Shown here in pieces: positions 22,750-25,700 of a DNA stretch of 64,000 nt. Source of the DNA: Escherichia coli (GTDB taxonomy: Bacteria > Pseudomonadota > Gammaproteobacteria > Enterobacterales > Enterobacteriaceae). The position numbers are program-made. The DNA lies in assembly GCF_003018255.1 (NCBI RefSeq), contig NZ_CP027440.1; one strand, given 5' to 3'. Positions within the stretch are counted from its first letter, which is position 1; every line of letters begins with the position of its first letter.

Positions 22750-25700
22750 TTATCCTTTTACGCACACCACCTGACGCAGGGTATAGATAACTTCCACCAG
22801 ATCGCTTTGTGCCGCCATCACCGCATCAATATCTTTATACGCCATCGGGATTTCGTCGATCACTTCGGCATCTTTACGGCATTCCACATGCGCGGTGGCA
22901 CGAATTTGATCTTCCACGCTGAACATTTTTTTCGCTTTAGTACGGCTCATAACCCGCCCGGCACCGTGGCTGCACGAACAGAACGACTCTTCATTTCCCA
23001 GCCCACGGACGATAAAGCTTTTCGCTCCCATCGACCCTGGAATAATTCCATATTGACCAGCACGCGCAGACACCGCGCCTTTACGCGTCACGTAGATCTC
23101 TTCACCAAAGTGCTGTTCTTTTTGCACATAGTTGTGGTGACAGTTGATCTCTTCCATCGCCAGCGTTTGTGGCTGTCTGACCGTTTTCTGCGTAATGCTC
23201 TGCAACGCCGTTACCACGTTTTCCATCATCGCATCGCGGTTAAGGCTGGCAAAAAGCTGCGCCCAGGCCACGGCTTTCAGGTAATCATCAAAGTATTCCG
23301 TACCTTCCATAAAGTACGCCAGATCACGCGACGGCAATGTTTCAAGCGTTTCCTGCATCTCTTTTTGCGCCAGATCGATAAAGTAAGTCCCGATGGCGTT
23401 ACCAATTCCGCGTGAACCGGAGTGCAGCATAATCCACACCTGGTCCGACTCATCAAGGCAGATTTCAATAAAGTGGTTACCCGTTCCCAGCGTTCCCAGG
23501 TGTTTATAGTTGTTAGTGTTAAGGAAACGGGGATATTTTTGCGTTAACCACTGATAACCGGCTTCCAGCTCAGCCCATTTCGCATCGACGTTAACAGGCG
23601 GATTTTCCCATGCGCCTTTATCACGTTTACAACGTCCGGTAGTACGTCCGTGCGGCACGGCTGTTTCAATCGCCTGACGCAGCTCCGCCAGGTTTTCCGG
23701 CAGGTCTGCCGCCGTTAACGCGGTACGCAGCGCGTTCATTCCACAACCGATATCCACGCCCACCGCCGCCGGAATAATCGCCCCTTTGGTCGGGATCACG
23801 CTACCAATGGTGGAACCTTTACCCAGGTGTACATCCGGCATTACCGCAATATGTTTGAAAATAAACGGCATCTTCGCCGTATTAATAAGTTGCTGACGCG
23901 CATCGGCCTCTACCGGCACGCCTTTGGTCCACATTTTTACCGGGGCATTTTCAGTGGTCAGTAATTCGTAATTCATTTTGTTTTTCTCTTTTCGTTGTTT
24001 GCTGTCCTGATAATTGCAACCGTCGTGCCAGAAAATTAAATAAGCAGCTTAATTTTTTTATTTATTGTTTTTAAAAAGATTATATCTTTACGTCCGTAAC
24101 CGGAGATTTCCCGCAAAGCCGATTTACCGATAATGAAATCTCGTCTTTTATAAGGATATCTAAGATGCGTAAAACAGTGGCTTTTGGCTTTGTCGGAACG
24201 GTGCTGGATTATGCCGGGCGCGGCAGTCAGCGCTGGTCGAAATGGCGTCCGTCACTCTGTCTATGCCAGCAAGAATCGTTAGTCATCAATCGACTGGAAT
24301 TGTTGCACGACGCCCGCTCGCGCTCGCTGTTTGAAACGCTTAAATGCGATATCGCCAGCGTTTCGCCAGAAACTGAAGTGGTGAGCGTTGAGATTGAACT
24401 GCATAACCCGTGGGATTTCGAAGAGGTTTACGCCTGCCTGCATGATTTCGCCCGTGGCTACGCGTTTCAACCTGATAAAGAAGACTATTTAATTCACATC
24501 ACCACTGGCACCCACGTCGCACAGATTTGCTGGTTTCTGCTGGCGGAAGCGCGTTACCTGCCCGCCCGGCTGATACAATCTTCCCCACCGCGCAAAAAAG
24601 AACAGCCGCGCGGCGCAGGTGAAGTGACGATTATCGATCTCGATTTAAGCCGTTATAACGCCATCGCCAGCCGCTTTGCCGAGGAACGGCAGCAAACGCT
24701 CGATTTTCTTAAGTCCGGCATTGCCACGCGTAACCCCCACTTCAACCGCATGATTGAGCAGATTGAAAAAGTGGCGATTAAATCCCGCGCACCGATCCTG
24801 CTTAACGGCCCGACAGGTGCGGGCAAGTCATTTCTGGCACGACGCATCTTCGAATTAAAACAGGCACGGCATCAGTTTAGCGGCGCATTTGTAGAAATGA
24901 ACTGCGCCACTCTGCGTGGCGATACCGCCATGTCGACGCTATTTGGTCATGTGAAAGGCGCGTTTACCGGGGCGCGGGAGTCGCGGGAAGGATTATTACG
25001 CAGCGCCAACGGCGGGATGTTATTTCTTGATGAGATTGGCGAACTGGGCGCAGACGAACAGGCAATGCTGCTGAAAGCCATTGAAGAGAAAACCTTTTAT
25101 CCGTTTGGCAGCGATCGCCAGGTGAGTAGCGACTTTCAGCTTATCGCCGGAACGGTGCGCGATTTGCGTCAGCTGGTTGCCGAAGGCAAATTCCGCGAAG
25201 ATCTGTACGCGCGGATCAATCTCTGGACCTTCACCTTGCCGGGGCTGAGCCAGCGCCAGGAAGATATTGAACCGAACCTTGATTATGAAGTGGAGCGCCA
25301 CGCCTCACTCACTGGCGACAGCGTGCGTTTTAACACCGAAGCGCGGCGCGCCTGGCTGGCTTTTGCGACCTCTCCCCAGGCAACATGGCGCGGTAACTTT
25401 CGCGAACTTTCTGCCAGCGTCACGCGGATGGCAACCTTTGCCACTAGCGGACGCATCACTCGGGAAGTGGTGGAAGATGAGATAAACCGTCTGCGCTATA
25501 ACTGGCAGGAGAGTCGCCCCTCCGCGATTACGGCGTTGCTGGGCGCAGAGGCAGAAAACATCGATCTCTTCGACCGTATGCAACTGGAACACGTAATAGC
25601 CATCTGCCGCCAGGCAAAGTCACTTTCTGCTGCCGGTCGCCAGCTTTTTGATGTTTCGCGCCAGGGCAAAGCCAGCGTCAACGACGCAGATCGGCTACGC

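What the first reader, a model, noticed from the sequence alone, without database searches (positions are those of the whole stretch)
24014..24031. Perfect sigma54 promoter upstream of rtcBA
CTGGCACgacggTTGCA on the rtcB strand is an exact match to the -24/-12 consensus, placed between rtcB and the divergent sigma54 activator gene rtcR. This is the textbook arrangement of the RNA-repair operon and confirms operon polarity.
Basis: partly seen in the sequence, partly recalled or inferred. Interest (0 to 1): 0.25.

Follow-up and report, generated by a model that had tools for sequence, protein, structure and literature searches.

The report
Known sigma-54 promoter of rtcBA operon

Summary
CTGGCACGACGGTTGCA lies on the minus strand at 24031..24015. 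It is the only exact TGGCAC-N5-TTGCW match in the 64 kb window. It sits in the 188-bp gap between rtcB (22750-23976, -) and the divergent rtcR (24165-25763, +). The window is E. coli chromosome.

The identical 17-mer is site OS35 in a published K-12 sigma-54 ChIP-seq map, 28 nt upstream of rtcB, and is flagged there as experimentally confirmed in EcoCyc. The predicted start is the C at 24004. It is preceded by an A, which fits the ApC primer used on the native promoter in vitro.

The 17-mer is invariant in five E. coli lineages and four other Escherichia species. A -24/-12-like element in the same position and orientation is present in 17 of 18 rtcR loci from distant bacteria.

"Perfect" does not mean strong, because the native promoter is reported to be very weak in vitro. 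Cross-species footprinting also suggests the rest of the control region: an IHF-like site near -60 and a conserved palindrome CGATA-N6-TATCG near -131. That palindrome may be the RtcR enhancer, the rtcR promoter, or both. This strain carries a common variant in it.

Verdict: already known, low interest.

The parts
24015..24031 (-). Sigma-54 core promoter CTGGCACGACGGTTGCA. The -24 element TGGCAC has GG at 24029/24028. The -12 element TTGCA has GC at 24017/24016.
   Evidence: Sequence. Only exact consensus match in the window. Identical to K-12 ChIP-seq site OS35. Invariant in 5 E. coli lineages and 4 other Escherichia species.
24004..24004 (-). Predicted transcription start (+1 = C, with -1 = A at 24005), giving a 28-nt 5' UTR.
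   Evidence: It lies 12 nt downstream of the -12 C. It equals the ChIP-seq paper's rule of 19 bp from the motif centre, with distance 28 to rtcB. The A/C dinucleotide fits the ApC primer used at -1/+1 on native PrtcBA. This is inferred. I could not read a direct start-site mapping.
23977..24003 (-). Rest of the rtcB 5' UTR, including a purine-rich ribosome-binding region (AAAAGAGAAAAACAAA before the ATG).
   Evidence: Sequence. Nearly invariant across E. coli lineages.
22750..23976 (-). rtcB, RNA ligase (408 aa), first gene of the operon.
   Evidence: Pfam RtcB, 447 bits. RefSeq annotation.
21730..22749 (-). rtcA, RNA 3'-terminal phosphate cyclase. RefSeq starts it at 22746. An in-frame ATG at 22749 directly abuts the rtcB stop codon.
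   Evidence: NCBIfam NF003247, 775 bits. Junction sequence GGA TAA ATG ATG. Annotation.
24165..25763 (+). rtcR, the divergent sigma-54 enhancer-binding activator. It has an N-terminal RtcR/CARF-type regulatory domain and an AAA+ domain with GAFTGA.
   Evidence: NCBIfam NF038308, 844 bits. Pfam RtcR and Sigma54_activat. GAFTGA at 265, Walker A at 215, Walker B at 285.
24058..24070 (-). Candidate IHF bending site AAACAATAAATAA, centred near -60. It has 2 mismatches to WATCAANNNNTTR in this strain and 1 mismatch in K-12.
   Evidence: A perfect IHF consensus lies at -60.5/-61.5 in Pseudomonas (3 loci), Iodobacter and Accumulibacter, and at -49.5 in Superficieibacter. That is 6 of 18 loci, against a mean of 0.43 and maximum of 3 in shuffles. 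The literature mentions an 'rtc IHF binding site' without giving its sequence. Inferred.
24128..24143 (-). Conserved palindrome, CGAGATTTCATTATCG in this strain and CGATATTTCATTATCG (CGATA-N6-TATCG) in K-12 and other genera, centred near -131. It is a candidate RtcR enhancer (UAS). It overlaps a sigma-70-like -10 hexamer (GATAAT, 24129-24134, + strand) that could serve rtcR.
   Evidence: An exact GATA-N6-TATC lies at -129 to -131 in K-12, four other Escherichia species, Klebsiella, Intestinirhabdus and Superficieibacter, and at -141 in one Pseudomonas. Counting a Desulfogranum N4 variant, 10 of 18 loci have an exact GATA-N4-8-TATC, against a shuffle mean of 0.41 and maximum of 3. Apart from the core promoter it is the only conserved block in the enterobacterial footprint. 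It lies inside the 175-nt fragment sufficient for RtcR-dependent reporter activity. Sigma-70-like match. Inferred, not demonstrated.
21692..21717 (.). Hairpin AGCCGGAT-N10-ATCCGGCT between convergent malT and rtcA. It may mark the operon's 3' end. It has no U-run on the rtcA strand.
   Evidence: Sequence only. Weak evidence.

Best explanation
The motif is PrtcBA, the sigma-54 (RpoN)-dependent promoter of the E. coli RNA-repair operon rtcBA.

Proposed mechanism:
1. RNA polymerase carrying sigma-54 binds the GG(-24)/GC(-12) element at 24031..24015 and sits there as a transcriptionally silent closed complex.
2. RtcR, encoded divergently 134 bp away, binds upstream. The likely site is the conserved CGATA-N6-TATCG palindrome centred near -131.
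3. RtcR's N-terminal CARF-type domain keeps it inactive until RNA damage signals relieve the inhibition. Published work points to tRNA fragments with 2',3'-cyclic phosphate ends, and to RtcA and RtcB themselves.
4. The AT-rich spacer (28% GC), with an IHF-like site near -60, loops the DNA so that the RtcR AAA+ ring touches sigma-54 through its GAFTGA loop.
5. ATP hydrolysis opens the promoter. Transcription starts at the C at 24004 and reads through a 28-nt leader into rtcB and the abutting rtcA.

What is shown in the literature for the identical K-12 sequence: sigma-54 occupancy, RtcR dependence, and constitutive activity of RtcR lacking its N-terminal domain. What is shown here: motif identity, gene identities, and conservation. 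What is inferred: the exact start site, the IHF site, and the identity of the enhancer.
For: - Exact, unique consensus match on the rtcB strand in the rtcB-rtcR spacer.
- The window is E. coli and the locus is annotated malT-rtcA-rtcB/rtcR-glpR.
- RtcB, RtcA and RtcR identities. RtcR has GAFTGA and Walker motifs.
- The identical 17-mer is ChIP-seq site OS35: FAT 17, distance 28 to rtcB, EcoCyc 'experimentally confirmed' (PMC4591121).
- A reporter with 175 nt upstream of rtcB is RtcR-dependent and is activated by RtcR lacking its N-terminal domain (PMC5175333).
- Sigma-54/RtcR dependence and the operon model are described, and the ApC primer at -1/+1 fits A24005/C24004 (PMC9650030).
- The Salmonella orthologue TGGCACGCTGGTTGCAAT binds sigma-54 and is sigma-54-dependent (PMC3844500).
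- The 17-mer is invariant in 5 E. coli lineages while about 15 other spacer positions vary. The 60-nt core is present in 4,533 E. coli genomes.
- A -24/-12-like element lies 127-200 bp upstream of rtcR on the opposite strand in 17 of 18 rtcR loci from gamma-, beta- and delta-proteobacteria and a Calditrichia MAG.
- No sigma-70-like promoter was found on the rtcB strand of the spacer.
- The enterobacterial footprint keeps only the core promoter and the palindrome block.
Against: - I could not read the original 1998 paper. Its rpoN dependence and any start-site mapping are taken second-hand from papers that cite it and from the EcoCyc flag in the ChIP-seq table.
- The native promoter is reported to be 'very weak in vitro' despite its consensus match.
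- Low-level or stress-induced rtcBA expression independent of RtcR has been reported, so other start sites may contribute.
- The enhancer assignment is uncertain. The palindrome carries a half-site substitution in this strain. That allele is shared by roughly 10% of E. coli genomes, including the type strain.
- With one mismatch allowed, the palindrome is not statistically unusual within the window alone (5 found, 1.9 expected).
- The same block could be conserved because it holds rtcR's own -10 element and leader.
Confidence: 0.96

Rival explanations
1. The site binds sigma-54 holoenzyme but is not the main functional promoter for rtcBA. Expression would come mainly from an unrecognised sigma-70 promoter, with the sigma-54 site acting as a silent or repressive roadblock. 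Many E. coli sigma-54 sites are not productive promoters.
For: Most of the 135 ChIP-seq sigma-54 sites in K-12 are intragenic and of unknown function. The native PrtcBA is very weak in vitro. RtcB is not completely absent in an rtcR mutant, and some inducers act independently of RtcR.
Against: A reporter with only 175 nt upstream of rtcB responds to RtcR and to constitutively active RtcR. The Salmonella orthologue is strongly sigma-54-dependent in reporter and array assays. No sigma-70-like promoter is detected on the rtcB strand of the spacer. The position and orientation are conserved next to a dedicated activator across phyla.
Confidence: 0.03
2. The match is a chance occurrence of the consensus in an intergenic region and has no function.
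For: An exact match somewhere in a 64-kb window arises in 13 of 100 shuffles. Near-matches are at chance frequency.
Against: The expected number on the right strand within the 188-nt spacer is about 2e-4. The 17-mer is invariant across Escherichia while its flanks vary. The orthologous position carries a -24/-12-like element in 17 of 18 distant loci. It is bound by sigma-54 in vivo in K-12.
Confidence: 0.005
3. This is a sub-rival about the upstream block only. The conserved CGATA-N6-TATCG block would not be the RtcR enhancer. It would be conserved only because it carries rtcR's own sigma-70 -10 element (GATAAT), start region and ribosome-binding site. RtcR would then bind elsewhere, for example at the GAGATTTC/GAAATCTC or AAATC repeats at 24103-24142.
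For: A sigma-70-like -35/-10 pair (TTTCCC-16 nt-GATAAT, 24107-24134, + strand) places the -10 inside the palindrome. Published models state that rtcR has a divergent sigma-70-type promoter. The half-site variant is common in E. coli. An 8-bp perfect inverted repeat, GAGATTTC/GAAATCTC, exists in this strain.
Against: Dyad symmetry with fixed N6 spacing is kept while the central 6 nt vary among genera. That pattern is typical of a dimeric helix-turn-helix site rather than a -10 hexamer. Its centre at -129 to -141 is typical for enhancer-binding-protein sites. The GAGATTTC/GAAATCTC repeat is not conserved even in K-12. The two readings are not exclusive: pspF shows the same overlap of enhancer and activator promoter (my own knowledge).
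Confidence: 0.35

Closest known systems
E. coli K-12 rtcBA promoter (PrtcBA; Genschik, Drabikowski and Filipowicz 1998, J Biol Chem 273:25516; ChIP-seq site OS35 of Bonocora et al. 2015)
   Same: The 17-mer CTGGCACGACGGTTGCA is identical. The 28-nt distance to the rtcB ATG, the gene order malT-rtcA-rtcB/rtcR-glpR and the 188-bp spacer length are all the same.
   Different: Only strain-level substitutions in the spacer. These are T to G in the palindrome at 24140, C for T at 24121, and two changes in the IHF-like site. All lie outside the core promoter.
[quoted passage not shown]
   Same: A divergent rtcR and a sigma-54 promoter TGGCACGCTGGTTGCAAT that differs only in the N-spacer. It is RtcR- and sigma-54-dependent.
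   Different: The Salmonella operon begins with rsr (a Ro60 orthologue) and two Y-RNA genes before rtcBA. E. coli goes straight into rtcB. Intestinirhabdus and Superficieibacter loci resemble Salmonella, with a first ORF carrying TROVE and vWA_Ro60 domains.
pspF-pspABCDE control region of E. coli (divergent activator gene, sigma-54 promoter, IHF site, UAS overlapping the activator's own sigma-70 promoter)
   Same: The overall layout inferred here matches: core -24/-12 element, IHF-like site between, an upstream dyad within the activator gene's promoter or leader region, and feedback of operon products on the activator. The psp analogy is drawn in PMC9650030.
   Different: The resemblance in enhancer/promoter overlap rests on my own knowledge of psp and on the inferred palindrome. 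It was not tested. RtcR has an N-terminal CARF-type sensor, whereas PspF has no regulatory domain.

Membership tests
Sigma-54 (RpoN) -24/-12 promoter class | GG and GC doublets separated by exactly 10 bp within TGGCAC-N5-TTGCW (extended form YTGGCACG-N4-TTGCW). | tested here: met
   CTGGCACGACGGTTGCA at 24031..24015. It is the only match to both the short and the extended consensus in the window.
Sigma-54 (RpoN) -24/-12 promoter class | Located upstream of, and oriented toward, a gene, with the start about 12 nt downstream of the GC. | tested here: met
   The predicted +1 at 24004 is 28 nt before the rtcB ATG. This agrees with the ChIP-seq table distance and the ApC primer. I did not see a direct start-site mapping.
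Sigma-54 (RpoN) -24/-12 promoter class | Occupied by sigma-54 holoenzyme in vivo. | not testable with these tools
   Literature: ChIP-seq peak OS35 (FAT 17) on the identical K-12 sequence (PMC4591121).
Sigma-54 (RpoN) -24/-12 promoter class | Transcription requires rpoN and a cognate AAA+ enhancer-binding protein. | not testable with these tools
   Literature: RtcR-dependent reporter, the sigma-54-dependent Salmonella orthologue, and Genschik 1998 as cited.
Sigma-54 (RpoN) -24/-12 promoter class | A cognate activator with a GAFTGA sigma-54 contact loop is encoded in the genome, here adjacent. | tested here: met
   RtcR equivalog, 844 bits. Sigma54_activat domain. GAFTGA at residues 265-270.
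Sigma-54 (RpoN) -24/-12 promoter class | An upstream enhancer (UAS) about 80-150 bp upstream, often with an IHF site between. | tested here: inconclusive
   A conserved palindrome lies near -131 and an IHF-like site near -60 across species. Both are degenerate in this strain, and no binding data were available.
rtcBA/rtcR RNA-repair locus | RtcB ligase and RtcA cyclase are co-oriented and adjacent, with divergent rtcR. | tested here: met
   The rtcB stop abuts the rtcA ATG.
rtcBA/rtcR RNA-repair locus | A sigma-54 promoter is conserved between rtcR and the repair operon in other bacteria. | tested here: met
   17 of 18 rtcR loci have a -24/-12-like element. Sixteen were found by the first scan and one more, in the Calditrichia MAG, by a relaxed search that accepts TTGAT at -12. 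RtcB and/or RtcA lie downstream in most loci.

The most novel reading that the evidence does not exclude
The conserved palindrome CGATA-N6-TATCG centred near -131 (24128-24143) is the so far undefined RtcR enhancer. It also overlaps rtcR's own -10 element (GATAAT), so that RtcR both activates rtcBA and autoregulates rtcR, as PspF does. The allele in this strain has a T to G change in one half-site, shared by about 10% of E. coli genomes including the type strain, and a more degenerate IHF site. Together these would lower or retune Rtc inducibility in that lineage.
Probability: 0.25. Interest if true: 0.3.

Novelty: already known. Interest (0 to 1): 0.08.

Why it matters
The finding matters little as a discovery. 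The promoter, its sigma factor and its activator were described in 1998 and have been re-confirmed by genome-wide ChIP-seq and reporter work. Its value here is as a correct annotation anchor: it fixes the polarity and the 5' end of the rtcBA operon in this strain.

The only mildly useful by-product is a sequence-level proposal for the rest of the control region, namely an IHF site and an RtcR enhancer. The open-access literature I could search draws these only schematically. If the palindrome is the enhancer, the common natural variant in it would offer a ready-made test of how enhancer strength sets the threshold of the RNA-repair response. That response has been linked to tolerance of ribosome-targeting antibiotics (abstract of PMC12606134).

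Tried and rejected
- **Original paper.** I tried to read Genschik et al. 1998 by PubMed id, but it is not held. Kurasz et al. 2018 (PMC6222203) is not held either.
- **Published UAS or IHF sequence.** I searched the iScience 2022 supplements for the UAS/IHF sequence of the hybrid promoter. Only the plasmid description is given, with no sequence. A full-text search for RtcR with 'upstream activating sequence' or 'palindrom' found no paper that defines the site. The Salmonella 2023 paper draws the enhancer only schematically.
- **GAGATTTC/GAAATCTC repeat.** I first considered this perfect 8-bp inverted repeat (24103-24142) as the enhancer. I rejected it as the primary candidate because K-12 and other lineages break it. 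It arises partly from this strain's T to G change.
- **Palindrome within the window alone.** With one mismatch allowed it is not significant. Only cross-species conservation supports it.
- **Rfam scan of eight related loci.** It gave only two tRNA-type hits and no named Y-RNA family.
- **Generic promoter and terminator scan.** It found no sigma-70 promoter in the spacer and no convincing intrinsic terminator after rtcA.
- **Searches not spent.** I did not run the large protein-homology or metagenome scans, because the identity of the locus was already unambiguous.
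Full report
**Observation.** The + strand at 24014-24031 reads TTGCAACCGTCGTGCCAG. 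The 17-mer proper is 24031..24015. It is the only exact TGGCAC-N5-TTGCW match in the window on either strand. About 0.13 are expected per window, and 13 of 100 shuffles had at least one. It is also the only match to the extended consensus YTGGCACG-N4-TTGCW. Matches with up to two mismatches occur at chance frequency (46 observed, 43.8 expected), so only the exact site is informative. An exact match somewhere in 64 kb is not in itself remarkable. One on the correct strand inside the 188-nt rtcB-rtcR spacer has an expectation of about 2e-4.

**Context.** The window is E. coli chromosome. A 1-kb probe is 100% identical to strain JNE23-011 and matches 4,858 of 5,426 complete E. coli genomes. The annotated gene order is malT, rtcA, rtcB, divergent rtcR, then glpR, glpG and glpE. 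I confirmed the genes independently:

- rtcB (22750-23976, -): Pfam RtcB, 447 bits.
- rtcA (21730-22746/9, -): NCBIfam RNA 3'-terminal phosphate cyclase, 775 bits against a cut-off of 333.
- rtcR (24165-25763, +): NCBIfam RtcR equivalog, 844 bits against a cut-off of 650, with Pfam RtcR and Sigma54_activat domains.
- RtcR carries the sigma-54 contact motif GAFTGA at residues 265-270, Walker A at 215 and Walker B at 285.
- The rtcB stop codon directly abuts the rtcA ATG (GGA TAA ATG ATG), consistent with one transcription unit.

**What is already known.** The same 17-mer is listed as intergenic site OS35 in the K-12 sigma-54 ChIP-seq map. Its entry gives FAT 17, minus strand, downstream gene rtcB (b3421), distance 28, PSSM 11.16, and flag 'C' for experimentally confirmed in EcoCyc (PMC4591121).

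- Engl et al. [quoted passage not shown] That reporter depends on RtcR and is switched on by RtcR lacking its N-terminal domain (PMC5175333).
- Kotta-Loizou et al. 2022 describe the sigma-54- and RtcR-dependent promoter. They mention an rtcBA UAS and an rtc IHF site, and they used an ApC dinucleotide primer at -1/+1 on the native promoter (PMC9650030).
- In Salmonella the orthologous promoter TGGCACGCTGGTTGCAAT lies upstream of rsr in the rsr-yrlBA-rtcBA operon. It binds sigma-54 and is strongly sigma-54-dependent (PMC3844500; PMC7790460; PMC9879122).
- All of these cite Genschik et al. 1998 for the original description. I could not read that paper.

**Anatomy.** GG(-25/-24) is at 24029/24028 and GC(-13/-12) is at 24017/24016. 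Twelve nt downstream of the -12 C is the C at 24004, preceded by an A at 24005. This position agrees with three independent indicators:

- the ChIP-seq paper's rule of 19 bp downstream of the motif centre;
- its tabulated distance of 28 to rtcB;
- the ApC primer.

The 5' UTR is therefore predicted to be 28 nt. This start site is inferred, because I saw no direct mapping. No sigma-70-like promoter is detected on the rtcB strand of the spacer, either by the standard scan or by a relaxed scan.

**Conservation.** In five divergent E. coli lineages (this strain, K-12, O157:H7, BL21 and SJ7) the 17-mer and its flanks from about -35 to -4 are invariant. About 15 other positions of the spacer vary. 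The 60-nt core is found in 4,533 E. coli genomes and is 100% identical in 2,287 of them.

A scan of one genome per species with RtcR returned 21 loci, of which I analysed 18.

- Four other Escherichia species have the identical 17-mer.
- Klebsiella, Intestinirhabdus, Superficieibacter and Iodobacter have exact-consensus variants that differ only in the spacer.
- Pseudomonas and Accumulibacter have TGGCACG..TCGCW.
- The Desulfo- lineages have TGGCATG..TGCT.
- All of these lie 127-161 bp upstream of rtcR on the opposite strand.
- A Calditrichia MAG has TGGCACGCCAATTGAT 200 bp upstream.
- Only one locus, with 42% RtcR identity, lacks such an element.

The operon behind the promoter varies:

- rtcBA in Escherichia;
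- rsr (TROVE and vWA_Ro60 domains) followed by rtcB in Intestinirhabdus and Superficieibacter;
- an SPFH/Band 7 gene and a tRNA-like element in Pseudomonas;
- rtcA before rtcB in Desulfobulbus and Desulfovibrio.

**The rest of the control region (inference).** Sequences were anchored on the -24 element.

- *IHF-like site.* A perfect IHF consensus (WATCAANNNNTTR) lies at -60.5/-61.5 in three Pseudomonas loci, Iodobacter and Accumulibacter, and at -49.5 in Superficieibacter. That is 6 of 18 loci, against a mean of 0.43 and a maximum of 3 in shuffles. K-12 has a one-mismatch site at -59.5. This strain has two mismatches (AAACAATAAATAA, 24070..24058).
- *Palindrome.* An exact GATA-N6-TATC dyad, flanked by C and G, lies at -129 to -131 in K-12, four other Escherichia species, Klebsiella, Intestinirhabdus and Superficieibacter, and at -141 in one Pseudomonas. 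Counting a Desulfogranum N4 variant, that is 10 of 18 loci, against a shuffle mean of 0.41 and a maximum of 3. The Escherichia loci are not independent of one another.
- *Footprint.* In an alignment of E. coli with the three other enterobacterial genera, only two blocks are conserved. One is CTGGCACG-N4-GTTGCAA. The other is the rtcR-proximal block that contains this dyad.
- *Spacer.* The spacer between the two blocks is 28% GC, against 50% for the whole window.

I propose the dyad as the RtcR enhancer. It lies within the 175-nt fragment that is sufficient for regulation.

Caveats on the enhancer proposal:

- This strain has CGAGAT instead of CGATAT (G at 24140, minus strand). That allele is shared by roughly 517-668 of 5,426 genomes, including the E. 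coli type strain.
- The dyad is not significant within the window alone.
- On the + strand its half GATAAT, paired with TTTCCC 16 nt upstream, makes a sigma-70-like promoter that could be rtcR's own. The block may therefore be conserved for that reason, or for both reasons, as at pspF.
- I found no open-access paper that defines the site.

**Comparison and verdict.** The finding is the K-12 PrtcBA promoter in another E. coli strain. It meets every sequence-level criterion for a sigma-54 promoter and for the rtcBA/rtcR locus. The functional criteria (sigma-54 occupancy, rpoN dependence and RtcR dependence) are met in the literature for the identical sequence.

'Perfect' describes consensus identity, not strength. 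The native promoter was too weak for in vitro assays and was replaced by the nifH element. Its PSSM score is below that of several other E. coli sites.

Novelty: already known. Interest: low.

Noticed in passing
window 42775-42791 (-), inside glgA: AAGGCATGTTTTATGCA is an exact copy of K-12 sigma-54 ChIP-seq site IS43. That intragenic site has a very strong peak (FAT 49) and lies 940 nt upstream of glgP. The paper text I read assigns it no specific function.
   Followed up: partly
window 6513-6528 (+), inside feoB: TGGCACTGAACATGCT matches the core of K-12 sigma-54 ChIP-seq site IS42, a weak intragenic peak with FAT 1.
   Followed up: partly
window 24506-24521 (+), inside rtcR: A one-mismatch sigma-54-like site, TGGCACCCACGTCGCA, lies in the sense orientation within rtcR. 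Its TCGCA -12 element resembles the Pseudomonas rtc promoters. rtcR does not appear anywhere in the K-12 ChIP-seq paper's main text.
   Followed up: no
window 24140 and 24058-24070: This strain carries a T to G change in one half of the conserved CGATA-N6-TATCG palindrome, and a more degenerate IHF-like site than K-12. The palindrome allele is common, in about 517-668 of 5,426 E. coli genomes including type strain ATCC 11775.
   Followed up: partly
window 24107-24134 (+): A sigma-70-like pair, TTTCCC-16 nt-GATAAT, is a candidate rtcR promoter. Its -10 lies inside the conserved palindrome, which suggests possible RtcR autoregulation.
   Followed up: no
L005 (E. coli 2013C-4991) 3288-5264; L004 (E. 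coli SJ7) 1-877: The locus is not universal or intact in E. coli. 568 of 5,426 genomes lack the 1-kb probe. In 2013C-4991 an IS1 truncates rtcR and joins it to yqeH, a rearrangement. In SJ7, rtcB is a pseudogene with an internal stop.
   Followed up: no
L014 2637-2709 (-) and L013 1784-1851 (-): tRNA-like elements (Rfam tRNA, 60 and 51 bits) lie just downstream of the sigma-54 promoter in a Pseudomonas and an Accumulibacter rtc locus. They probably represent the tRNA-mimic module of Y-RNA-like genes. The Pseudomonas operon also carries an SPFH/Band 7 gene before rtcB.
   Followed up: partly
L010 (Klebsiella oxytoca), about 2680-2840 (-): Here rtcB starts 187 nt after the -24 element. The leader opens with a short ORF, MANLLQFRSAV..., that resembles the N-terminus of Rsr in Intestinirhabdus (MANPLLFRPA...). 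It looks like the remnant of a deleted rsr/Y-RNA segment.
   Followed up: no
window 21692-21717: The hairpin AGCCGGAT-N10-ATCCGGCT lies in the 42-bp gap between convergent malT and rtcA. It is followed by a T-rich run only on the malT strand, so rtcBA has no obvious intrinsic terminator.
   Followed up: no
window about 29470-38900: A block of three small ORFs (two hypothetical, one YbbD family) plus a seven-gene fimbrial chaperone-usher cluster sits between glpD and glgP. From memory it is absent from K-12. I did not check this.
   Followed up: no
window 25745-25763: rtcR and the convergent glpR-like DeoR-family gene overlap by 19 bp at their 3' ends. glpR is annotated as a pseudogene in K-12 MG1655 but is intact here.
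   Followed up: no
whole window compared with NZ_AP045067.1: The window is 100% identical to strain JNE23-011 over the rtc region. Position by position over the full 64 kb it shows 696 differences, so the window is a related strain or recombinant and not that strain.
   Followed up: no
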